Below, one piece after another: positions 33 to 44,197 of a DNA stretch of 44,197 bases; within the stretch, counting starts at the first letter, position 1, and the number at the start of each line of letters is the position of its first letter. The notes under the pieces were generated by a model. That model did not search any database, was not told the DNA's origin, and saw only the letters and a program-made list of their open reading frames with translations. The position numbers and the translations under genes are program-made. The DNA is from a virus (Duplodnaviria > Caudoviricetes). The DNA is taken from positions 1 to 44,197 of IMG/VR virus record IMGVR_UViG_3300024249_000002. The stretch is one strand, 5' to 3'.

Positions 33-82
33 ATGGCGAGGCCTCTCAAACGAGATGGCGAGGCCTCTCAAACGAGATGGCG
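33..82 (+). repeat. 22-bp tandem repeat ATGGCGAGGCCTCTCAAACGAG, two copies plus a partial third
   Basis: Copies at 33-54 and 55-76, partial 77-82. Confidence 0.9.
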
Positions 83-13856: not shown

Positions 13857-14816
13857 ATGCCGCGCGTCGTGGGTGAACTCGAGTCGTGGACCGCCTACGG
13901 CGCGCGCGGATGGGGACGCGGGACGTTGCGGGTGGGCGTGGTGGGCGGCGCGGCCGGCGCGCCCGGTGGGGACACGTTGACGATCGTGGGCGTGATCCCT
14001 GGCGCGCGTCCCGGGGACTACGTGGACGCGTGGGGGGATCACGAGTCACACGCGAAGTACGGGGATCAGTTCGTGGTTGAACGCGCCAGCTTGTCCGCGC
14101 CGCAATCCTCGGACGCGGTGGTTGCGTGGCTTGTGGCGACGTTGCCGAACGTAGGCGACAGGCGCGCGCGGCAACTTGTGGCGCGGTTCGGGGACGACTT
14201 GTGGCGCGTCGTGGAGCACGAACACGAGCGCCTAACCACCGTGGACGGGATCTCCCGGGACCGTGCCGTGGAGATCCGCGCCGCGTACCTGGCGGCCAGT
14301 GGGGACCGTGAGGCGCAAGTTGTATTGCGTGCATGGGGACTGACGACGTCACAGATCGGCCGGTGCGTGGAGCACTGGTTCACGGCGGACGCGGCCGTCC
14401 ACGCGATACGTCAGGACCCGTACGCGCTGGCGCGCCACGTGGACGGGTTCGGATGGAAGCGCGCGGACGAGGTGGCGCGCGCTTCCGGGTTGCCGGCCAG
14501 TGCGCCCACCCGGGTTGCGGCCGCGATCGATCACGCGCTGGCGGAAGCGTTGCAGGCTGGCCACGTGAGTATGCGGCCGGGTTACTTCCGGGTTGCCGTG
14601 GAGGCATTGCTCGGACCGGAGGTGGCGCGCCCGGACGTCATGCGAGGTATCGCCACGGCGCTCCGCGTGGGACGCGTCGTCAAGCGCGGCGCCCGTGTGT
14701 ACCTGGCGCGCGCGGACAGGGACGAGGACAGGTTAGCAGGGTTGATTGCACACAGGTTAGGCGGTCGGACGCCGGAGGACACAACGTATGACACAACGCC
14801 CGCTAGTAGTGATTGA
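13857..14816 (+). CDS. RecD2-like helicase, N-terminal part (OB fold + HhH repeats)
   Basis: H.KYG.QF, LPNVG..RA..LV..FG, V.GIS, I..DPY.L...VDGFGWKRAD..A, R..AAI..AL....GH. Confidence 0.85.
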   Translation: MPRVVGELESWTAYGARGWGRGTLRVGVVGGAAGAPGGDTLTIVGVIPGARPGDYVDAWGDHESHAKYGDQFVVERASLSAPQSSDAVVAWLVATLPNVGDRRARQLVARFGDDLWRVVEHEHERLTTVDGISRDRAVEIRAAYLAASGDREAQVVLRAWGLTTSQIGRCVEHWFTADAAVHAIRQDPYALARHVDGFGWKRADEVARASGLPASAPTRVAAAIDHALAEALQAGHVSMRPGYFRVAVEALLGPEVARPDVMRGIATALRVGRVVKRGARVYLARADRDEDRLAGLIAHRLGGRTPEDTTYDTTPASSD

Positions 14817-15261: not shown

Positions 15262-15482
15262 TCACACGGTTGAACGAGGTAGACGCAACCGTTCGCCTAC
15301 ACCTTGCGATCTCGATTCTGCATGGTGTGGCGACGGTTCCAACGGACCGTCCGGACGTCGCGATCGCTCGGATGATCCGCGCGCGCGTGATCGTGGCGGA
15401 CGTCAGCGCCGCGTTGCTCCGCGCGATCGTGGACCTCGATTCCGCGTCACCGGAACCACCTCCATACAACGGTCCAACATGA
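15231..15482 (+). CDS. Hypothetical protein
   Basis: GTG start after GGAGG; ATGA overlap with the helicase. Confidence 0.6.
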   Translation: MSNVSNLAQVITRLNEVDATVRLHLAISILHGVATVPTDRPDVAIARMIRARVIVADVSAALLRAIVDLDSASPEPPPYNGPT

Positions 15483-16684
15483 CGAGCGCCGGCGCGCGTT
15501 CCGCGCTTGTTTTCTCGCTAGATCCTTCGCAGCAACGCGGCGTGGATTTAGTGCTCCGCGCGCGGTTCGGCGCGCTGACGGGACCTCCGGGATCAGGCAA
15601 AACGACAACGCTATGCGCGGCGCTAGATGCATGCGACGCGCGCGGGATCACGTACGCGCTGGCCGCGCCCACCGGCAAGGCAGCGCGGCGCATGACACAA
15701 CTAACATCACGTCCAGCGTGCACGCTGCATCGCTTGCTTGAGTGGCGCGGTGGCGTGTTCACTCGGAACGAGGACGCGCCGCTGGACGCGGACGTTGTGA
15801 TCGTGGACGAGGCCAGCATGATTGATTACGCGCTAGGCCAGGCGTTGCTAGCGGGGACACAGCGGAGTCGTTTGATCCTTGTGGGTGACGCGGATCAACT
15901 TCCGCCGATCGGTGTGGGACGCATGTTCGGAGACCTCGTGGAGGCGGAGGTTGTTCCCACTGTCAGACTAACAACCCAACACCGCGCGGCCGCGGAGTCG
16001 TGGGTTGCTCGCAACGCACCACTGATCAACGCCGGCCAGTGGCCGGAACTCGTGGAGTGCAAAGGGTTCCGGCATGTGCTTGTGGAGGCGGCCGCGGACA
16101 TAGTGCCGGCCGTGTCGGACGTTGCGCGCGGGGACAGGGACGTGGTTGTCCTCGCACCACAGTATGCCGGCGCGGCCGGGTGTGACGCCTTGAACACGAC
16201 ACTGGACGCGCTTCTAAACCCGTGTGCGCTAACCGAGTACGTGACGCGCCATGGCGTACGCCGCGGCGCGCGTGTGATCCAAACGGTGAACAACTATCGC
16301 TTGGAAGTCATGAACGGACAGATCGGCGTGGTGGAAGCGATTGACTCCACGGGCGCACATGTTGTGTTTGACGACGATAACAAACATGTTATGTATGCAA
16401 GCGCTGACGTTAGCGCATTACGTCTAGCGTATGCGCTGACGGTACACAAAACACAGGGATCCGAGTTCCCTCACGTATGCGTCGTGTGTCATTCGACACA
16501 TACGCACATGTTGTCTAGGTCGCTGATTTACACCGCTGTGACCCGCGCCCGTGCACACGTGACGCTCGTGGGTGACATGGTGGGGTTAGAGCGGGCGCTA
16601 CGTACCAACGCCGCCCGGCGCGAAACAAGTTTAGTTGAACGCTTGACAGGTGGCCTTCCGGCCGCGGAGGTGGCGGACGGTTGA
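15479..16684 (+). CDS. RecD2-like SF1B helicase core
   Basis: GPPGSGKTT, APTGKAA, TLHRLL, DEASM, GDADQLPP, NG..G, YALTVHKTQGSE, YTAVTRA. Confidence 0.92.
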   Translation: MTSAGARSALVFSLDPSQQRGVDLVLRARFGALTGPPGSGKTTTLCAALDACDARGITYALAAPTGKAARRMTQLTSRPACTLHRLLEWRGGVFTRNEDAPLDADVVIVDEASMIDYALGQALLAGTQRSRLILVGDADQLPPIGVGRMFGDLVEAEVVPTVRLTTQHRAAAESWVARNAPLINAGQWPELVECKGFRHVLVEAAADIVPAVSDVARGDRDVVVLAPQYAGAAGCDALNTTLDALLNPCALTEYVTRHGVRRGARVIQTVNNYRLEVMNGQIGVVEAIDSTGAHVVFDDDNKHVMYASADVSALRLAYALTVHKTQGSEFPHVCVVCHSTHTHMLSRSLIYTAVTRARAHVTLVGDMVGLERALRTNAARRETSLVERLTGGLPAAEVADG

Positions 16685-16688
16685 ACGA

Positions 16689-17231
16689 GGCAGGCGGGGC
16701 GCGGCCTGGCGTGGCCAGGCATGGCAAGGCAGGCGGGGCGGGGCGAGGCGCGGCACGGCAGGGTCAGGCAAGGCAGGCACGGCAAGGCATGGCGTGGCCG
16801 GGCACGGCAAGGCAGGCATGGCGAGGCATGGCGAGGCATGGCGAGGCATGGCTAGGCCGGGCAAGGCAGGCGAGGCGAGGCCTGGCACGGCGAGGCGAGG
16901 ATGGGTTAGGCGTGGCAGGGCAGGCAAGGCAGGCGGGGCAAGGACTCGCATCGTTAGGCGCGGCAACGCCTGGTTAGGCTGCGCATGGCTACGCGGGGAA
17001 TGGCGAGGCAAGGCAGGCGTGGCATGGCGAGTCCCGGCGTGGCAAGGCGCCGCAACGCAAGGCAAGGCAGGCGAGGCGAGGCCGGGTTAGGCGTGGACGG
17101 GTGACGACAGGCAAGGCAGGCGGGGCAGCGCTAGGCGAGGCAAGGCGCGGCAACGCTAGGCAAGGCAGGCGTGGCGCGGCGTGGCTGGGTTCGGCGCGGA
17201 CTGGCCAGGCAGGGCGAGGCAAGGCAGGCAA
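16689..17231 (+). repeat. Segmented GGY-NN pentamer array; putative guide-RNA array
   Basis: Parses exactly into 99 pentamers (mostly GGC-NN; some GGT/GGA/CGC variants) and 12 GGCA tetramers; GGCAA-GGCA closes 10 segments; ORFs over it are low-complexity artefacts. Confidence 0.9.
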
Positions 17232-17299: not shown

Positions 17300-17974
17300 A
17301 TGCCACGAGCAAAACTCACAGTCGCAAGGCAGGAACAACACATATCAATCAGCGCGCCGAACTTGCAAACGGCCGTGTTTGAATGTCGCGGGACCGCGCC
17401 GCTTATGATCTCGCGCTTTGACTCGCGCGGACCGGACGGCGCCGGGTCCAAAATGCGTCAAGCACAGGAGGCCGGTGGGACCGCGGACTCCAAGAAAAAG
17501 AAAGCTCCGCGTGATTTTGACGCGGAGTTCATGCGCGCGCGGTACCTGGCGCGCCCGGAAGGTTGGGACGGGATCAACGCCGCGGCGTTCCGCAACGCTA
17601 TGATCTCCGCGTGTCGCCTCGTGGGTTACAAAATGACGATCGCGAAGTTGTCCGTGTGGGTGATTGCGGACGGGATCAGTGAATGTGACACGCAGCTAGT
17701 TAGGATATACGGGACGCCGGAATGCAACGTCCGCAATGCGCGGAACGCGAACGGCGGAACCGACTTACGCGCGCGGCCGTTGTGGCGTGAATGGGCGTGC
17801 AACGTAACGATCCAGTATGACGCGGATCAGTTCACGTTACAGGACGTGACGCATCTAATGATGCGCGCCGGCGCGCAGGTGGGAGTGGGTGAAGGACGGC
17901 CGGATTCACGCCTGACGCCGGGAATAGGTTACGGGACTTATCGCGTGGACGGGTCCGGGACGGTGACGTCGTGA
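17300..17974 (+). CDS. Stand-alone Cas7/RAMP-like RNA-binding protein
   Basis: N-terminal strand FECRGTAPLMI, GINAAAFRNAM helix (cf. IPGSSLKG of Cas7-group RAMPs) and C-terminal Gly-rich loop GVGEGRP...GYGTYRV; AGGAAG RBS. Confidence 0.75.
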   Translation: MPRAKLTVARQEQHISISAPNLQTAVFECRGTAPLMISRFDSRGPDGAGSKMRQAQEAGGTADSKKKKAPRDFDAEFMRARYLARPEGWDGINAAAFRNAMISACRLVGYKMTIAKLSVWVIADGISECDTQLVRIYGTPECNVRNARNANGGTDLRARPLWREWACNVTIQYDADQFTLQDVTHLMMRAGAQVGVGEGRPDSRLTPGIGYGTYRVDGSGTVTS

Positions 17975-18432
17975 CGCCTGCAATCGTAGAGGAACTTCGC
18001 GCGTTGACGGCGCAACACGGTGGAACGTTACGTCCTCGTGACGTGTTAGATCGCGCCCGGGATCCTGACAACGTGTTGCATCCGTTGTTTACTTGGGACG
18101 ATACGACGGCCGCGGAACTCCGCCGCCTGGACGAGGCGCGCGGCGTGATCATGCGCGTTCGCGTGTGGGTGCAACCTCGTCCGGACAAGCCTGCCGTTCA
18201 AGTCCGGGCGTTCACTTCCCTAGCCACAGATCGCGTATCTGGCCTAGGTTATCGGCCGATTGAAGCTGTAATCACGGATCCGGTTCAACGTGTGGCGTTG
18301 CTCCGGACCGCGCTGGCGGAGCTGCATTCACTGCAACGCCGGTACGCGATCCTCGTGGAGCTAGCGGACGTGTTCGCGGCAGTGGAACGTGTGACGGGTG
18401 TGGCAGTCACAAGCGCGGAGGCGGCGCTGTGA
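17971..18432 (+). CDS. Conserved partner protein of the Cas7-like gene
   Basis: GTGA coupling; L.P..V...A.....LH..FTWDD..AA...RL..AR..I..V.V motif. Confidence 0.75.
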   Translation: MTPAIVEELRALTAQHGGTLRPRDVLDRARDPDNVLHPLFTWDDTTAAELRRLDEARGVIMRVRVWVQPRPDKPAVQVRAFTSLATDRVSGLGYRPIEAVITDPVQRVALLRTALAELHSLQRRYAILVELADVFAAVERVTGVAVTSAEAAL

Positions 18433-18686
18433 TCGGTCCGGTGACTCCCGTGGTTACGATCACACGACGCAACGCGCGGGACGTCACCGGTATGTCCTGG
18501 ACGCGTTGCCTGACGTTCGCGCGGGACCATGGCGTTCCGGTCCGGCGCCTGTCCCCTCGGACGACGGTGATTGACGCCGGCGCATTCCGCGCGGCGTTCG
18601 CGCGCCTGGCGGAGGACGGGTCCACGCCGGCCGGTCCACCCATGGACGCGCTGGACCTCGTGTTGCGCCGGCCGTTGCGACGTTGA
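18429..18686 (+). CDS. Possible excisionase / small DNA-binding protein
   Basis: Basic 85 aa; HTH-plus-wing-like pattern; at end of early operon facing the integrase. Confidence 0.45.
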   Translation: MIGPVTPVVTITRRNARDVTGMSWTRCLTFARDHGVPVRRLSPRTTVIDAGAFRAAFARLAEDGSTPAGPPMDALDLVLRRPLRR

Positions 18687-26040: not shown

Positions 26041-26709
26041 CTAGCCTCCCACCGGAATACGTCCGCCGTCCGCGCCGCTTCCCCATTGTTCCGAGTTCCC
26101 CCACAGCCGTCCGCGCGGGTAACCCCACAAGCGCGCGCCCGGTGGCATCAAAATGATCTCGCCTAAACAGTGCGCCGCGATCCATTCGCGCGGAATGATC
26201 TTCAAGTCCTCCGCGTCCGCCATGGTGACCTGATCGGTGAAGTACAACAGCACCCACCGCGCCCACTGCGCCACGTCCCTGGACACGCTGACGTTCGGCG
26301 TGATCGTCCCGTCCGGGTCCATGGCGAACAACGCGCCGGACCTGTACAAGAGCACGATCGGAAACGTGTTAGGCGAGTAGTGATAAAACAACTGTTGCAG
26401 CAACGCATACGGACCTCCGCGCGTCCGGTGATCAATCCACCACCGGATCAGGCGTGACGCGTATGGCGCGTCCGCTTCCGTGAGGCCACGCCGGATCCGG
26501 CGTTCCTTGCCGATCGGTCCTAACGACTCCGCCGAGTACAGGTTAGGGAACCGCAACTTCACGCCGGCCACGAGTGCGTCCCCGGCCGCGTCCAGCTGGA
26601 CCGCGATTGAATACAGGATGCGTTGCGCTAGGCCTGTCTGCAGCCACGGCGGAGACAGGCGCCACAACGTGTCCCGGTACGTTAGTATGACCTGATCGGG
26701 CGCTGTCAT
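26041..26709 (-). CDS. Baseplate wedge protein (P2 gpI / Mu gp48-like)
   Basis: Follows baseplate J; L..IG.ER.I.R...E....Y..RL motif. Confidence 0.7.
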   Translation of the reverse strand: MTAPDQVILTYRDTLWRLSPPWLQTGLAQRILYSIAVQLDAAGDALVAGVKLRFPNLYSAESLGPIGKERRIRRGLTEADAPYASRLIRWWIDHRTRGGPYALLQQLFYHYSPNTFPIVLLYRSGALFAMDPDGTITPNVSVSRDVAQWARWVLLYFTDQVTMADAEDLKIIPREWIAAHCLGEIILMPPGARLWGYPRGRLWGNSEQWGSGADGGRIPVGG

Positions 26710-27899
26710 GAATAGAACGCTTCCGGCGGCGGAACCTGGACGATCTGTGTGGCCGTGATCGCGCCCACCGTCGCAACCTGTTGTTTAGTCAGCGGCTGAT
26801 CCGTGGCCGGCGTTGTGATCTCCACGTGGAAGATCTCCCGGTACGTGGACGCGATCGCGCTGCGCAAGGCGTCAACGAATATGTGACCCGGTTGCGCTGG
26901 ATCGATCACGTTGCCGCCCACCGGTTGCGCACGGATGAACGCCACGATCGCGTCGTGGATCCTGGCCGTGATTTGCGCCACCGTTTGACCGGAGGTGTTA
27001 TACATCCAAACGGAATACGTCACAGCGAACGGAAGCTCCGTTGCGCCGAACACGCGCGCCGTGACAGCTTGCGGCGCCGCGTTTTGCAGGACGGCCAGTT
27101 GCGCCGCGCCTAGGTCCGTAGCCGGGTCCGTCATGTCACCGGTGACAGCGCCGGTGGCCGTGGCGCAGTAGCAGTCAACGTGTCCATACCCGTCAACCAC
27201 GAGCGAGATCCGCGCGATGCCTATGTTCGTTCCGTCCTGTCGGACAGCGTTGCGGAGCGCCACGCTATACGCGTCCCATGGTCCCATAGGTGACAGTGCG
27301 CCTAGGCGTTCCGTGCAACGCTGGCGGAGGGACGGATCTCCCTCCACGTCCGCGCCGAACAACGCCACCGGGTTGTCCACGGTGACGCCTAACAGGCCTG
27401 TGACTAACTGTGAGATCGCGTGCGCGTCCGCGTTGGACGCGGTCCCGGCCTCCGTAGCCACCACGCCCACCGTCGCGATCGGGTGGGCCGGGTCCAGCGT
27501 GAAGGCCTCCGTGTTGCGGTACGTGTGGCCGGTGGCCGCGTTGCGGACGATCGCGTCACCCGGATCCAGGTTGTAGATCGCGCCACCGGTGGAAGTGAAC
27601 ACGACGTCACCGGCCGCGAACTCCGCGTCCCGGCGCTCCACGCCGTAGACGTACCACGCCACGAGCGTCAACCATTCCGCGTCCGAAGTCTCGAGGAACC
27701 CGGACCGCGCGATGCTGGCCATCAGGGACGAGTACGCCGCGAACACGGCACTCACTCCCACGATCATAGTCCGGACCACGGATCCCGGTTTCCACGCGGA
27801 CGTGTTGACGCCCACAGCGGCCAGCACGTCATATATTGAGGCCTGGACCTCCGCGCGTGTGAGCGGCGTTGTGAGCTCCGCGATCGTTAGTCTAGCCAT
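26706..27899 (-). CDS. Baseplate J-like protein
   Basis: A.G.V.F, A.EAG...N, G.D.E.D..LR.R motifs. Confidence 0.88.
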   Translation of the reverse strand: MARLTIAELTTPLTRAEVQASIYDVLAAVGVNTSAWKPGSVVRTMIVGVSAVFAAYSSLMASIARSGFLETSDAEWLTLVAWYVYGVERRDAEFAAGDVVFTSTGGAIYNLDPGDAIVRNAATGHTYRNTEAFTLDPAHPIATVGVVATEAGTASNADAHAISQLVTGLLGVTVDNPVALFGADVEGDPSLRQRCTERLGALSPMGPWDAYSVALRNAVRQDGTNIGIARISLVVDGYGHVDCYCATATGAVTGDMTDPATDLGAAQLAVLQNAAPQAVTARVFGATELPFAVTYSVWMYNTSGQTVAQITARIHDAIVAFIRAQPVGGNVIDPAQPGHIFVDALRSAIASTYREIFHVEITTPATDQPLTKQQVATVGAITATQIVQVPPPEAFYS

Positions 27900-39126: not shown

Positions 39127-40751
39127 GCCGCCTCCGTCGTGGCCGGCGCCGGCGCGGTGGGCGCGGTGGGCGCGGCCGGCGTCAGTCCAGCGGATCCCAG
39201 CATGGCGTCCGCCTCCGCGGCGTCCACGAGGAACGAGCGCTGTATGATGGCCGCGGCCGCGTCACGCGGGACGAGGCCAGCAACCACCGCCTGGACGATC
39301 TCTAACAGTGACCCGATCTGTGCGCCGTTTAGCGCGGAGTCTTGTGCAGGCTTGCCGGTGGGCGGCGCGGATACGTCCGCGGCCGTCACCACGCCGTCCG
39401 CCTCGTCCACGTCCACGCCGTCCACGTCCGTCCCACCCACGAGGCGGAGGCCTCCGGATTGCGGCGCTGGCGCAGGTTGCTTGATCGGAATGGCGAAGTC
39501 CTCCGTCAGCGCCTGGACGTCTAGTTCCTGGCCGGACCCGGCCAGCGCCGTCGTCATTTGCTGGATCGCAGTGGCCAGCGTTTGAATCGTGAGTGCGTCC
39601 GCGTTTTTGTCCTTCGGAGGCGTCACGTCGTATTCCATGACGCAAGGCTTGGTTTCGATTGCGGCCGGTCCCCACCGGAGCGCCACGAACACCGGGATCC
39701 CTTGCGTATTCAATGTGTATGCGAGGCCGTCCGCGGTGGCCTGGATCAAGTCCGCGCGGATCATGCGGTGGATATCCTGATTGCTGAAACCAGTTCCGCC
39801 TGACGTTGTGATCGTCTGTCCAGCGATCGTGATGATGATCTCTTGATTCTGATCCTCGATAGTCCGGACGAACGAGTCAGCGCCGCGGCCGTTTGACTCC
39901 AACAGGCGCACGTCATATCCAACCGGCAACCCGAATACCGTGTTGATTCCCCACGCTAATATGTTGCGGAAGAATGAATCTTTCTGCGCCTCCGTGGATC
40001 CGTTCGGCGCAACGGCCACACGCGCCGGGTGTGCGAGTTTTGACTCCCAGTTGTCCCGGTGCCAGTTCGCGTGATCCTTGCGTATGTAGTTCCGGCCTAG
40101 CGCGCGCCACAACCCGTTGTTCCACGGCGCAACGCGGCCGCCCGGTGTGTGTAAGATCCAGCGACCGTCCCCGGGTGTGATCGGCAAACGTCCGATCACA
40201 CTGAGATAATACCAACGGTTCTCCGCCCACACATATTGCAGGTATTGCGGATCCAACCGGCAAAACACCGGGAAGTCGCGGCCGATCACTGGCAACAGTT
40301 CGCCTACGCCTACGCCTAACAGTTCACCGTCCGCGGCCAGTAGCGCGAGTTCGGACGGCGGAAACATCTCGTCAAACAAGCTCCGGACGGAGTCCCGTCC
40401 AACGCTTAGTTGTTCCACCACCTCCGGGTCCCCGCGGAACCGGCGCGGCAAGCGAACGAGTCCGGACGTACGCGTGGACAGGACGCCGGAGATCACGCCG
40501 TCCCGGCGCGCCGCGGCCATCAAACGCCCGGCCAGCTGTAACGAACCGTTGTCCGCGTTGTGTTCGGCTGTCTCGAGGTCCGCCAGATACCACCGCGATT
40601 GTGTCGCGGTAGGCATTTGCAACTGGCCGCCGTTGACGTTCCGGCGCGCCTCGTCAATGTCGATGGAACCAGCGCTCCATGGTGGCGGCGTATAGGTCGA
40701 ACGACCTAACAGCCGGGAAGTCATGAGTGTGATCCCGTTGACTAGTTCCAC
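39123..40751 (-). CDS. Portal protein (Mu gp29 / DUF935-like)
   Basis: RRD..I..VL.TR, G.GVGEL, I.GQT.TT; lies between terminase and protease. Confidence 0.85.
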   Translation of the reverse strand: MELVNGITLMTSRLLGRSTYTPPPWSAGSIDIDEARRNVNGGQLQMPTATQSRWYLADLETAEHNADNGSLQLAGRLMAAARRDGVISGVLSTRTSGLVRLPRRFRGDPEVVEQLSVGRDSVRSLFDEMFPPSELALLAADGELLGVGVGELLPVIGRDFPVFCRLDPQYLQYVWAENRWYYLSVIGRLPITPGDGRWILHTPGGRVAPWNNGLWRALGRNYIRKDHANWHRDNWESKLAHPARVAVAPNGSTEAQKDSFFRNILAWGINTVFGLPVGYDVRLLESNGRGADSFVRTIEDQNQEIIITIAGQTITTSGGTGFSNQDIHRMIRADLIQATADGLAYTLNTQGIPVFVALRWGPAAIETKPCVMEYDVTPPKDKNADALTIQTLATAIQQMTTALAGSGQELDVQALTEDFAIPIKQPAPAPQSGGLRLVGGTDVDGVDVDEADGVVTAADVSAPPTGKPAQDSALNGAQIGSLLEIVQAVVAGLVPRDAAAAIIQRSFLVDAAEADAMLGSAGLTPAAPTAPTAPAPATTEAA

Positions 40752-40798
40752 GCCACGAAGCTGACGCGCGCGCGCGGTGTGCGCAGCGAACTCGAGCG

Positions 40799-41041
40799 TT
40801 AGTCGTGATCGGTGGCGTCGTGGAGGTGTTGGACCGTCCAGGCCACGACAGGGATCCTGTATGTGTTAGCTAGACGCTCCGCGGCGCGCGGGTTAGGCCT
40901 GGCGTCACCTGACAACCACTCCGATACGCACGAAGGAACGACTCCGCAACGCGCGGCCACTTCGCGCGCGGTGGTTCGTTGGATCACGGCCACGAGCAAG
41001 CGCCGGCCACGTGAACGCCTGACTAACGTGATCGCCACCAT
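40799..41041 (-). CDS. XRE-family HTH protein
   Basis: AREVAARCGV.PS.VSEWLSG..RP. Confidence 0.75.
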   Translation of the reverse strand: MVAITLVRRSRGRRLLVAVIQRTTAREVAARCGVVPSCVSEWLSGDARPNPRAAERLANTYRIPVVAWTVQHLHDATDHD

Positions 41042-42690
41042 TCGTTGCCTCCGTATGGATCGATCGTTTGCTCCGCGTATGGCGTCACAGCGTCCCGGCC
41101 TTCGCTCGTGGCGGTGGCGGCGCTTGGCGGCAAATCACCGGAGGACAGGCTAAGTGGTTCCCATGCCGACAACGCGAACGCGTCATATCTGTCCGGGGAC
41201 CGGCCGATCAGTTTGCGGATCAGTTCCTTCGGGGTGAGTTTCAGGCGTCCGTTGATCGCTTGCTTCCATTCCAACACGTGGAGTTCCGTGGCCAGCTTGA
41301 CGTCCTCCGGTATCGCGCCGCCGTCACGGAACCATTGTTCCGCGTTCGCGGCCAGTTCATCACGCGCGCGATCGTATATGTGCGGTTTGCGTTGCGCCTT
41401 GTCACTGGCGCGGACCGTAACTAGTTCGAACGCGTTCGGGTTCATCTCCGTGAAGTTGCGCAACCGGCCGGCCAGGGACGCGCCGATCCTACCTTCGCGA
41501 TCCAGCACAACCACCGGTGTTTCACGAGGCAACCGGAACTCCGTCAACAGGATCAGTAGCTGGACGAGGTGTTGCTCGTCATTCAATCCGCGTTGCGTGC
41601 GCAGCGTTAGGAGCTTCATACCGCGCCGGATTGCAAAGCACGTATCGTCCCCTAGGCCGGATTCACCGGCCGGGTCGAGGCCCACGAACAAGCGCCCGGC
41701 CGCCTCCATGGTTGGCCAGCGTTGTTCCGCCTGTGTGATCGCGTGGACCGTGAATATCTTCGCTTCCTCTTGTAACGCGTGCTGTCCCTTTACGCGTATC
41801 TGATACAGCGGACTCGCTTCCCCCCATTCTTGTTTCTTGTCCTCGCACCACTCATACGTTGCGAGTCCGGGGATCACTAGTTTGCGCGCCTTGTAGTTCG
41901 GCGTGTCCTCGGACGATATGCGCATGGTCGCATACAGTTTGGACTTGCCGTAAAACGCTTCGTAGAACTCACCGGAGTTCCGCGTCCCTTGGGACAGCAA
42001 CAACAACTTGGCACCACCGGCGCGGTTCCCCTCGATTGCCTCGAATATGAGATCGTCAATCCCGGAGGCCTCGTCCGCTATATAGAACAAGTTACGTCCG
42101 GAGATCCCAGCCACCGCCTCGGACTCCTTAGCAGTGAATCCAACGATCTCCCGGAAGTCCTCGGACTTGAGTCCCGTTCGCGCGAGTTCGCCTTGTTCGC
42201 CGTCAATCAGCGCGCTGTGTTCGCACGGGCGCTTGATTAGCAAACCTTCCGGGTCCCGTTCCTTACACTCGACACAGCGCCCGGACCGCGCGCGGATCAT
42301 GCGGAGTTCGCGCCATAGGATCTGATCCACCTGGCGGGACGTCGTGGACGTCATGACGACGCGCGCGTCCGGAAACGAGCAATAATACCAGAGCGCCAGG
42401 GACGCGGCCGTGTGGGACTTACTGACCTTGTGTCCCGAACATATTGCAACGCGATCATGGTCCCGGACGAGTTCCATGATTTGCCACTGCTTTTCCCATG
42501 GTTCCACGCCTAGGATCTCACGGCAAAACGTCACCGGGTCCCGTTGGTAGTGTGGGTTAGGGAACTGTATATGTAACGTGCGCTCTAGTAACTTATCGAG
42601 GCGACGATCAAACGACTCCGCAAACGTCCACAGCTCCGGATCAGGTGTCCGCCTCCGGAGTGCTAACTCCTGCGCTCGTGTATCTGGCAT
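41023..42690 (-). CDS. terL: Terminase large subunit
   Basis: PW.KQ, SGHKVSKS (P-loop), IADEASG (Walker B), RVKGQ, GLDPA, GRSPDRYDA. Confidence 0.9.
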   Translation of the reverse strand: MPDTRAQELALRRRTPDPELWTFAESFDRRLDKLLERTLHIQFPNPHYQRDPVTFCREILGVEPWEKQWQIMELVRDHDRVAICSGHKVSKSHTAASLALWYYCSFPDARVVMTSTTSRQVDQILWRELRMIRARSGRCVECKERDPEGLLIKRPCEHSALIDGEQGELARTGLKSEDFREIVGFTAKESEAVAGISGRNLFYIADEASGIDDLIFEAIEGNRAGGAKLLLLSQGTRNSGEFYEAFYGKSKLYATMRISSEDTPNYKARKLVIPGLATYEWCEDKKQEWGEASPLYQIRVKGQHALQEEAKIFTVHAITQAEQRWPTMEAAGRLFVGLDPAGESGLGDDTCFAIRRGMKLLTLRTQRGLNDEQHLVQLLILLTEFRLPRETPVVVLDREGRIGASLAGRLRNFTEMNPNAFELVTVRASDKAQRKPHIYDRARDELAANAEQWFRDGGAIPEDVKLATELHVLEWKQAINGRLKLTPKELIRKLIGRSPDRYDAFALSAWEPLSLSSGDLPPSAATATSEGRDAVTPYAEQTIDPYGGNEWWRSR

Positions 42691-43318
42691 GCGGTCCTAA
42701 CCCACTGGACGGATCACGAAAGGCGCGTTGGATCGCCTCGTGGACTGCCTTCGCCGCCAGTGGGTGAGGTTCTAACGCGTCAATGACGAGATCGCAAAAT
42801 CGTCTAAACGCCGGGTGTTGCCGAACATATCTGTCCTCTGACAGTTCCTGCGATCCTTCAAGGCGCGCGCGGAGCGTTAGGATCTTCGCCTCCGCGTCCG
42901 CAAGCCTAACGCGTTCGGTAGGCAGCAACCCGGGTTGCTGGCGGTCCTTCCGGATCACGGCCAGCAAGTCCAAGCAATCCTGTAGCGTGCTTGGCGCGCC
43001 GTCTTTGTGCGTCGTGGGTGACGCGGCGCCGGGCGCGGTGGGCGCGGTGGGCGCCGGGTCCGCGCCGTCCAGGGAGTGACCCGGCAACACGAGCCAGGCG
43101 CGTTCCGGGATCCCGTACATGGCCGCTATGCGCTGGCGTGTCTCCGGCGCCGGGACCTTGGCGCCCGTACGCCAGTCAGCAACGGATTGCGGGGACTTGA
43201 CGCCTAGGTCCGCCGCAATGGCCGCCAGCGTCCCCACGACTTGAAGGAACCGCGCTTGTCCTTCCGACCGGAGTACAGGCGCGGCCAGGGAGATCGGCCG
43301 CGGATCTCGTGGTGCCAT
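42641..43318 (-). CDS. HTH protein in the packaging operon
   Basis: LAAIAADLGV.SPQSVADWRTGAKVP HTH followed by a helical C-terminal domain. Confidence 0.7.
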   Translation of the reverse strand: MAPRDPRPISLAAPVLRSEGQARFLQVVGTLAAIAADLGVKSPQSVADWRTGAKVPAPETRQRIAAMYGIPERAWLVLPGHSLDGADPAPTAPTAPGAASPTTHKDGAPSTLQDCLDLLAVIRKDRQQPGLLPTERVRLADAEAKILTLRARLEGSQELSEDRYVRQHPAFRRFCDLVIDALEPHPLAAKAVHEAIQRAFRDPSSGLGPHARYTSAGVSTPEADT

Positions 43319-43321
43319 GCG

Positions 43322-43747
43322 TTACGCCTCACCACGCCAGGACGAGGGATATGGCGAGATCGGCCGCTCGTGTTCCACCGGAGGCGTGCCGGCCGCGCGC
43401 TGGCGGACCGTTTGCAATATGTAGTGGTCCGGGTGCTTACGCTCTAACAGCCACGCCGCGGCGCGCCAGTCCGCCGTAGGAGGTGACTGTCCAAGCGCCG
43501 CGCGCGAGATCACGAGGTGGTTACGCCGGACGTCGTGTGCGATCGCTTCCGCGACGTCACGCGCAAGTTGCGCGTACGGTTCACGGCCGGCACGTCCGAG
43601 CGTCAACCACTCGTCCAGTTCGTCCAGCGTGAGGCCGGCAAGCGCCGCGGCGTGGACGGGGAACACGCCCACCCGAAGCGCGTCAGTTAGTTTTGCGTGG
43701 CGCTCCGGTGTGTACTCCGGTCCCGTGGATTGTGGTCGTTTCGGCAT
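43322..43747 (-). CDS. terS: Terminase small subunit
   Basis: N-terminal HTH (AA..AG......EW) and DWRAAAWLLERKHP motif. Confidence 0.75.
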   Translation of the reverse strand: MPKRPQSTGPEYTPERHAKLTDALRVGVFPVHAAALAGLTLDELDEWLTLGRAGREPYAQLARDVAEAIAHDVRRNHLVISRAALGQSPPTADWRAAAWLLERKHPDHYILQTVRQRAAGTPPVEHERPISPYPSSWRGEA

Positions 43748-43994
43748 GCGTCAAATGTGTACGACTTACTAACGCGAGGCCACGCTCCACGGTGGGTTGT
43801 ATCCTGGCAATATGCGCCGCGAAGGACTCGTTCCGAACGGCGCACACGCGGATTGTGAACGTGATCAGTAGCGCTGTTACGTCCTGCACACTCACGGCGC
43901 CACCGTTTAGTTGTTCAAGCTTGTCCTCGATTAGGTTGACGACTTCTAGGATCTCGAGTGCGTGATCGTGCGGATTATTGGATCGCGGAGCCAT
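43683..43994 (-). CDS. Hypothetical protein
   Basis: Start probably ATG 43994 (MAPRSNN). Confidence 0.5.
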   Translation of the reverse strand: MAPRSNNPHDHALEILEVVNLIEDKLEQLNGGAVSVQDVTALLITFTIRVCAVRNESFAAHIARIQPTVERGLALVSRTHLTHAETTTIHGTGVHTGAPRKTN

Positions 43995-44173
43995 GTTTGT
44001 TCGGTTGCCTTTATTTTGGTGGCACACGGTCCCCCGTCAGGGATGACGTGGGAACCGGTACCCTTGCATTGGGACAAGTGCCGGAAACGATTGCGGTTTT
44101 TCCGCCGGGTTTTTCAGAACTTCCGTGTCCAAAAAACTGTGCAGTTCTGGGACTTTTCGCCGGGGTCCTTTGG

Positions 44174-44197
44174 GGCTCGCGCCTCCCTAGACTGTAG
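44174..44197 (+). repeat. Terminal direct repeat, right copy
   Basis: Identical to 1-24. Confidence 0.95.

What the first reader, a model, noticed from the sequence alone, without database searches (positions are those of the whole stretch)
42815..42850. Two array segments, read as NN-x-NN-x, nearly match one in-frame site in the phage's own packaging operon
Minus-strand codons of the gene before terL read CAG GAA CTG TCA GAG GAC AGA TAT GTT CGG CAA CAC (QELSEDRYVRQH). Their first two bases give CA GA CT TC GA GA AG TA GT CG CA CA. S5 matches codons 1-10 at 16/20 bases and S8 matches codons 5-12 at 14/16, with the skipped base on the wobble position. S8 decodes to (E/D)(E/D)RYVR(E/D)(H/Q), a plausible homolog, and one mismatch is the AGA Arg codon that is rare at high GC. 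Inference: the guides target the homologous gene of related phages in a synonymous-mutation-proof way while this phage has escaped self-targeting. Caveats: found by eye post hoc; rough uniform-base chance is about 0.02-0.03 per segment over both strands; S5 and S8 share sequence and are not independent.
Basis: partly seen in the sequence, partly recalled or inferred. Interest (0 to 1): 0.8.

Follow-up and report, generated by a model that had tools for sequence, protein, structure and literature searches.

The report
Phage RNA guide aimed at kin
A bacterial virus carries a recently described RNA-guided silencing system (VIPR), and one of its guides matches exactly a conserved spot in the DNA-packaging gene cluster of many related viruses but differs at two letters from the virus's own copy, so it likely silences relatives while probably sparing itself.

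Summary
Confirmed and explained. The array (16689-17231) is a staggered VIPR guide array ahead of a vipr gene (best PDB sequence hit SUSP1 Vipr; Cas7/Csm3 fold) and an accessory gene. The NN-x-NN reading and wobble skip are the published VIPR code. S5 (16/20) and S8 (14/16) match as stated, but inside this genome alone they are only marginal (p 0.014-0.09 each). Relatives decide it. S8's 16-base gapped pattern has 23 exact hits in IMG/VR, and 12 are the orthologous codons of the gene between terS and terL in related ~44-kb phages. In the terL clade holding this phage, 6 of the 7 other lineages score 16/16. Both self mismatches (AGA, CAA) are derived. Limits: in a motif-independent sample only 6 of 32 orthologues are perfect; S5 reaches at best 17/20; evidence that selection made the self mismatches is modest (p 0.01-0.06, post hoc); and 14/16 exceeds the papers' 80% target threshold, so the phage's own site may still be bound. 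Verdict: a new member of a known system. Its target class, a core gene the carrier shares with its kin, was not in the VIPR papers I read.

The parts
16689..17231 (+). Staggered vrRNA array: 10 in-phase runs of GGY-NN pentamers (6-15 variable units each) separated by a constant GGCAA-GGCA junction that shifts phase by 1 nt
   Evidence: the same junction pattern occurs in at least 122 IMG/VR loci, 70 of them with a Vipr-profile hit
16869..16918 (+). Guide segment S5 (10 units); overlaps the S8 target; best natural match 17/20; followed by an irregular junction with an extra 4-nt unit
17070..17109 (+). Guide segment S8 (8 variable units, 16 read bases); perfect match to the orthologous site of related phages
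17300..17974 (+). vipr gene (224 aa, RAMP/Cas7-like with C-terminal glycine-rich loop)
   Evidence: profile hit to SUSP1 Vipr, PDB 36pp, E 5.7e-6 (single sequence E 0.0014); model pLDDT 85 matches Csm3/Cmr/Cas7 folds (top Z 11.7, rmsd 3.5, 153 aligned)
17971..18432 (+). Accessory gene (vap candidate, 153 aa), function unknown
   Evidence: homologues in 65 of 122 foreign array loci, 51 together with vipr; phrog_15946
42815..42850 (-). The phage's own copy of the target site, codons 157-168 (QELSEDRYVRQH); mismatches to S8 at codon 163 (AGA) and codon 167 (CAA)
42641..43318 (-). Target gene: N-terminal HTH plus conserved helical C-terminal part, function unknown; lies between terS and terL and overlaps the terL start
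   Evidence: PHROGs HTH regulator hits; present in 15 of 15 near-complete relatives searched
43322..43747 (-). Terminase small subunit (upstream of the target gene)
   Evidence: phrog_4102 E 2e-14
41023..42690 (-). Terminase large subunit; its start codon lies 126 nt downstream of the S8 footprint
   Evidence: phrog_2 E 6e-21

Best explanation
This phage has a VIPR cassette inserted behind its recD2-like gene, and guide S8 matches exactly a conserved site 126 nt before terL in many related phages but only 14 of 16 bases of its own copy, so it likely silences the relatives' packaging/late operon while probably sparing its own. Shown here: the cassette, its identity, the matches, the wobble register, and the absence of vipr from most relatives. 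Taken from the VIPR papers: Vipr coats the guide RNA, each NN pairs with two target bases with one skipped, and binding inside a gene represses transcription. Inferred: the array is expressed and cut into guides; binding 126-160 nt before terL blocks transcription into terL, portal and capsid genes of a co-infecting or induced resident relative; and two mismatches are enough to spare self. S5 is likely a paralogous guide for a variant of the same site, or a decaying copy.
For: 12 of 23 exact IMG/VR hits of the S8 pattern are the orthologous site. 12 of 18 viral orthologue loci score 16/16, 4 score 15, 2 score 13; two further metagenome loci score 16 and one 15. Across 2.48 Mb of family DNA, S8 has 9 exact sites; shuffled S8 has at least one exact site in 4 of 1500 and 0 of 1500 tries, and skips 0, 2 and 3 give no 15 or 16. 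Family-profile score: S8 15.6/16, S5 15.9/20, p <= 0.001. 76 foreign guides: the top scores give no perfect hit of 14 or more bases in the family set. The footprint is among the 35 most conserved of 4221 late-gene windows, and self matches 29 of those 35 exactly but not this one. terL tree: self and L005 sit in a 9-row clade whose other 7 rows score 16 (six) and 15 (one), so AGA163 and CAA167 are derived. The relatives are syntenic. vipr is in 1 of 20 near-complete relatives, and recD2 lies directly next to the gene that follows the cassette in 3 complete relatives.
Against: In a sample found through the baseplate gene, without the motif, only 6 of 32 orthologues are perfect; the 24 new ones score 4-15. 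The 12 of 18 figure comes from a motif-seeded search. Self at 14/16 (87.5%) and S5 at 16/20 (80%) meet the >=80% threshold used for natural targets, and SUSP1 guides average 89% on their real targets, so self may be bound. At a looser conservation cut, self has 2 or more mismatches in 54 of 143 windows. The branch-length test gives p 0.011-0.064 and is post hoc. Q at position 167 occurs in 6 of 53 homologous proteins. AGR enrichment in the footprint of non-self relatives is not significant (4 of 37 vs 21 of 360, p 0.27), and this gene has 4 AGR among 21 Arg codons. The one VIPR-bearing relative has no clear kin-directed guide. No host, expression or binding data.
Confidence: 0.65

Rival explanations
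1. S8 is a real kin-directed guide, but the self mismatches are ordinary lineage drift that predate or are unrelated to the cassette. Only a survivorship filter acts (guides that hit self perfectly are lost), with no escape by the target. The practical effect on relatives is the same as in the best explanation.
For: The self stem is long in the terL tree (0.28). Self differs at many conserved windows (54 of 143 at the 50% cut). The same two changes are in L005 (94% identical protein) and in contigs of two other runs, whose VIPR status is unknown or only partly known.
Against: 3 changes at read positions fall on 12-15% of the clade's branch length (p 0.011-0.064), and L005 has a further CGG-to-AGA change in the footprint.
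Confidence: 0.2
2. The guides are autoregulatory: partial matches let VIPR dampen or delay the phage's own packaging operon (for instance in the lysogen or early in infection), and the better match to relatives reflects the ancestral sequence of the phage's own gene.
For: Self scores reach the papers' 80% threshold; two guides overlap on the site; S8 equals the inferred ancestral state of the clade; S3 also fits a self gene at 11/12; the phage has an integrase.
Against: A self-regulating guide should track the self sequence, yet S8 fits relatives better. The cassette is an insertion absent from 19 of 20 near-complete relatives, so it is not a core regulator. Self near-matches are not enriched in 134 foreign guides (4 with p <= 0.05), and the discovery paper found none at >=80% in three guide sets.
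Confidence: 0.13
3. The match is chance.
For: In-genome p values are 0.014-0.09 with 10 segments tested; 11 of the 23 exact IMG/VR hits are unrelated chance sites.
Against: 12 exact hits fall on one orthologous site in wobble register; shuffles and other skip lengths fail.
Confidence: 0.02

Closest known systems
VIPR systems (Vipr + vrRNA), bioRxiv 10.64898/2026.04.26.720920, including the staggered-array architecture (fig. S18 legend)
   Same: Phage-borne vipr plus accessory gene, GGY/NN pentamer guides, one-base skip on the wobble position, targets in competing phages, 1-nt staggered array
   Different: The target is a core late-operon gene that the carrier itself encodes, and the carrier's own site scores 80-87.5%; the paper reports no self hit at >=80% in P. 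fulva, type III and type V guide sets. Its named targets are satellites, prophage lysis-lysogeny regulators and other VIPR loci. Type (I-VII) not assigned: figure 5A and data S4 were not visible.
SUSP1-family kin-directed guides, bioRxiv 10.64898/2026.10.15.759431
   Same: Guides against relatives with lower self-match than non-self match; read positions conserved and wobble variable at the target
   Different: There the kin-directed guides hit vipr genes and vrRNAs, often from vipr-null phages. Here a vipr-bearing phage aims at a packaging-operon gene of mostly vipr-null relatives.
Class 1 CRISPR backbone RAMPs (Cas7/Csm3/Cmr4)
   Same: Fold of the protein
   Different: No CRISPR repeats or other cas genes seen in the locus; the guide code is non-contiguous

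Membership tests
VIPR | Stand-alone RAMP (Vipr) with RRM core, thumb and G-loop | tested here: met
   Best PDB sequence hit is SUSP1 Vipr; confident model matches Csm3/Cas7 folds; invariant glycines 191, 195, 199, 208, 210 in 120 homologues
VIPR | Minimal locus: vipr plus one accessory (vap) gene | tested here: met
   17300-17974 overlaps 17971-18432; the partner co-occurs with vipr in 51 of 122 foreign array loci
VIPR | Flanking non-coding tandem GGY/NN pentamers | tested here: met
   16689-17231, same strand as vipr. Runs are 6-15 variable units; several are shorter than the 9-16 given for type II; some scaffolds deviate (GGA, CGC)
VIPR | One-base skip rule, skip on the wobble position | tested here: met
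   S8: 9 exact family sites with skip 1, none at 15-16 with skips 0, 2, 3; codon positions 1/2/3 conserved 0.97/0.99/0.60
VIPR | Guides match competing phages or mobile elements | tested here: met
   S8 perfect in related phages; the other 8 segments have no convincing target
VIPR | vrRNAs expressed, processed and bound by Vipr; transcriptional repression | not testable with these tools
   Needs small-RNA sequencing, pull-down and reporter assays
VIPR, staggered array | Successive guides offset by a 1-nt overlap | tested here: met
   Every junction is a 4-nt unit that shifts phase by one; processing boundaries not tested
VIPR type II (SUSP1/P. fulva) | Each guide followed by a conserved ~40-nt structured 3' tail | tested here: not met
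   Segments abut through a 9-nt junction with no intervening tail, so not filed as type II

The most novel reading that the evidence does not exclude
A PAM-less RNA-guided system used for kin discrimination: the phage silences the packaging operon of its own close relatives through a gene it shares with them, and has recoded its own copy, partly through the one synonymous route the wobble-skip code cannot cover (Arg CGN to AGA). AGA variants in relatives and the overlapping guide S5 (ending in AG at that Arg) would then be successive moves of a codon-level arms race.
Probability: 0.25. Interest if true: 0.75.

Novelty: new member of a known kind. Interest (0 to 1): 0.5.

Why it matters
VIPR has no PAM, so how it tells self from non-self, and how many mismatches it tolerates, is open; I found no mismatch-tolerance data in the parts of three VIPR preprints that I read. 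This locus gives a natural graded series for one 8-unit guide (16/16, 15/16 by a synonymous AGA, 14/16 self, 13/16) at a site just before terL. It extends the target classes named in those papers to a core late gene shared by carrier and victim. It also shows that first-position synonymous changes in six-codon amino acids can break the match, which matters for the claim that the wobble skip prevents escape and for designing VIPR guides.

Tried and rejected
Other guides: S1, S2, S4, S6, S7, S9 and S10 have no significant family target (profile p 0.35-0.85; scans). The 3' half of S6 gave 37 exact IMG/VR hits, none above 22/30 for the whole guide. An S5 pattern with one base left free gave 2 IMG/VR hits, neither in the family. 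No orthologue of the target gene was found in GTDB genomes or in the cultured-phage collection, so the host is unknown. A major-capsid relative lies on a 4-kb contig of a Polyangiaceae MAG (62%) and on a 20-kb contig of a Gaiellaceae MAG (48%): a lead only. No Rfam match over the cassette and no sigma-70-like promoter match at 40700-44197. No RNA holder listed. Run X3 shows no cover over most of the cassette and has a 9-letter loose end at 16675; it might be a strain without the cassette, but a hole proves nothing. General self near-matching by staggered-array guides: not enriched. The careful terL tree did not finish; the quick tree is used. Literature searches returned the same four VIPR preprints; the supplementary tables and data files of the bioRxiv preprints (data S1-S4; tables 6-18) could not be seen and may list comparable targets.

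Full report
Observation. The window is a whole 44,197-base phage record with an integrase, Mu-like portal, contractile tail sheath and a terS - HTH gene - terL block on the minus strand. At 16689-17231 lies an array of GGY-NN pentamers in ten in-phase runs, each closed by GGCAA-GGCA, which shifts the phase by one base. With one base skipped between dinucleotides, S5 scores 16/20 at 42822-42850 and S8 14/16 at 42816-42838 on the minus strand, with the skip on codon position 3 of ORF 42641-43318. Against three nulls S5 has p 0.014-0.031 and S8 0.024-0.089; with the junction AA counted, S8 is 14/18, p 0.49. Taken alone this is marginal, and S5 and S8 share 26 of 30 bases.

What the array is. The ORF after it (17300-17974) has the SUSP1 Vipr protein (PDB 36pp) as its best solved-sequence hit: E 0.0014 alone, 5.7e-6 as a 120-sequence profile, covering the C-terminal stretch. 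Its model (pLDDT 85) matches Csm3/Cmr/Cas7 RAMPs. The overlapping ORF 17971-18432 travels with vipr in 51 of 122 other loci that share the junction pattern, and 70 of those 122 have a Vipr-profile hit. This is a VIPR system. In bioRxiv 10.64898/2026.04.26.720920 (I read parts 1-4 and 6 of 6, section 27 and passages; supplement PDF searched for six terms) the guides use a one-base skip, mostly on the wobble position, repress transcription from either strand without a PAM, and include staggered arrays with a 1-nt overlap. 10.64898/2026.04.26.720927 (parts 1-2 of 6) gives the structure. So the reading rule and the wobble argument are published. The junction is treated as constant because it recurs in the foreign arrays and its AA falls on a Pro codon invariant in the 23 aligned homologues.

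The test in relatives. The target gene has 53 distinct homologous proteins from two searches. 29 carry EDRYVR[DE]H, which is what S8 decodes to; 6 carry the self form EDRYVRQH; 11 carry other variants; 7 were not parsed by the motif expression. The exact S8 pattern occurs 23 times in IMG/VR; 12 are the orthologous codons and 11 are unrelated. Of 18 viral orthologue loci 12 score 16/16, 4 score 15/16 and 2 score 13/16. Of 6 metagenome loci, one is the window's own record and two repeat viral loci; the other three score 16, 16 and 15. All five 15/16 loci miss by an AGA Arg codon. In 19 of these relatives, codon positions 1, 2 and 3 of the footprint are 0.97, 0.99 and 0.60 conserved, and 18 of the 19 sites differ in full sequence. 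In 2.48 Mb of family DNA S8 has 9 exact sites; order-shuffled S8 has one in 4 of 1500 tries, base-shuffled in 0 of 1500; skips 0, 2 and 3 give no score of 15 or 16. On a codon profile of 15 relatives, S8 averages 15.6/16 and S5 15.9/20 at this site, p <= 0.001. Among 76 foreign guides the top scores show no perfect match of 14 or more bases in the family set. S8 is therefore a real guide for this site.

An important limit. One search was seeded with the motif. A baseplate-seeded search gave 53 loci. Eight are records already seen (six at 16, two at 15). I passed the other 45, where 24 had a full-length orthologue; these score 4-15, none 16. So 6 of 32 are perfect: S8 covers part of the family, not all. 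That part includes the phage's nearest kin. In a quick terL tree of 37 rows (careful search unfinished), self and L005 sit in a nine-row clade (support 93) whose other seven rows score 16 six times and 15 once; perfect sites also occur in other clades.

The relatives. They are syntenic ~44-kb phages, 50-83% identical in most head and tail proteins; four of five complete ones have an integrase homologue. vipr was found in 1 of 20 near-complete relatives, with both positive controls found (also 0 of 20 records with the single sequence). In three complete relatives recD2 lies within 3-18 bases of the homologue of 18429-18686, so the 1.75-kb cassette is an insertion. The single VIPR-bearing relative (G045) has it at another place, with a more degenerate array whose six hand-parsed segments show no clear kin target. 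A contig of run X2, whose pieces are mostly 95-99% like the window, has the array in another order with a different segment (depth 3.5, laid at low stringency), which suggests turnover of guides between strains. Contigs of X2 and X3 that cover the target site show no difference from the window there.

Did self escape? Both mismatches (AGA at codon 163, CAA at 167) are absent from the seven sister rows, so they are derived, and L005 adds AGA at 166. Among the 35 of 4221 late-gene windows in which at least 70% of relatives share one read pattern, self is exact in 29 and has two or more mismatches in 5, two of them this footprint. At a 50% cut it has two or more in 54 of 143. Placing changes on branch lengths gives p 0.011 (nine rows) or 0.064 (eleven rows), post hoc. 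AGA is 11 of 720 Arg codons in 29 genes, but this gene has 4 AGR in 21, and AGR in the footprint of non-self relatives (4 of 37) does not differ significantly from the rest of the gene (21 of 360, p 0.27). Selection is thus plausible, not shown, and the order (guide kept because self already differed, or self changed afterwards) cannot be told. Whether two mismatches protect is also open: the papers% a target, and SUSP1 guides average 89% on satellites they silence (10.64898/2026.10.15.759431; I read parts 1-3 of 8, sections 17 and 25 and passages). One self mismatch lies in unit 7 of 8, near the 3' end from which the filament is reported to assemble; that this is a seed is my inference.

S5. 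Its best natural score is 17/20. Each of its odd units fits some family variant (E at -4 in L028, Thr in L020 and L025, AGA at the second Arg in L005, L007, L015, L027), and its TG over CGN would give a U-G pair. No sequence seen combines them. It is likely a paralogue of S8 for an unsampled variant, or a decaying copy.

Mechanism. Likely: array and vipr-vap are transcribed with the replication genes on the plus strand; Vipr coats S8; the complex binds the template strand 126-148 bases before the terL start of a co-infecting or induced resident relative. Because terS, the HTH gene, terL and a second HTH gene abut or overlap, with portal 48 bases further on, the block would be polar on head assembly. 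Expression, co-transcription, a shared host and self-sparing are inferred.

Generality and prior art. In 26 other array-bearing records fetched, 134 guides from 25 records were scored against their own record: 4 had p <= 0.05, no excess (20 reached 80%, as short guides do by chance). Self near-matching is not a general trait. The discovery paper reports no self hit at 80% in three guide sets; the October preprint reports kin-directed guides against vipr and vrRNAs with lower self-scores. Searches returned the same four VIPR preprints (the fourth, 10.64898/2026.10.21.760802, seen as passages). In what I read none describes a guide against a core packaging-operon gene that the carrier shares; their supplementary target tables were not visible. 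Two unchecked notes of this scan describe similar cases in other genomes.

Verdict. Observation confirmed. Interpretation partly supported: kin targeting by S8 is strongly supported, escape is plausible but unproven, and the code is not fully proof against synonymous change. New member of a known kind, interest 0.5.

Noticed in passing
window 16776-16805 (S3) versus 27760-27776 (+), codons 42-47 of baseplate wedge gene 26706-27899: S3 fits this conserved site antisense and in wobble register at 11/12 in self and in 28 of 53 relatives, never 12/12 (profile p 0.001-0.014 before correcting for 10 guides). Possible third kin guide or chance; self is not spared.
   Followed up: partly
run X2, contig record 6 on window 16753-17069: A near-identical strain appears to carry the array in another order (S7 before S6) with a segment not in the window; low depth, laid at low stringency.
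   Followed up: no
G045, L288:1500-3130: The only VIPR-bearing relative has vipr-vap followed by a degenerate array, inserted at a different place; independent acquisition is likely.
   Followed up: partly
G067, L394:7630-7656: A 9-unit guide of this unrelated phage matches its own record at 16/18 (0 of 300 shuffles), a few hundred bases from pentamer repeats; possible self-regulation of a VIPR locus.
   Followed up: partly
window 13857-14816 and 15479-16684: A RecD2-like helicase is split into an N-terminal OB/HHH gene and a C-terminal helicase gene with two small genes between; both halves are found in five complete relatives.
   Followed up: no
window 16815-16859 (S4) and 16914-16931: S4 contains a 10-nt unit three times over, and S5 is followed by an extra 4-nt unit before the junction; both look like slippage within the array.
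   Followed up: no
window 40799-41041: A second small HTH gene sits between terL and portal, so the terminase gene is flanked by two HTH genes; the same holds in most relatives.
   Followed up: no
H1-H20: Vipr homologues annotated as hypothetical proteins occur in 31 records of the GenBank phage collection (25 Mycobacterium, 5 Gordonia, 1 cyanophage at 53%); some may be ready laboratory models.
   Followed up: no
window 33-82: A perfect 22-nt tandem repeat (2.3 copies) at the left end of the record; may be an assembly or terminus feature.
   Followed up: no
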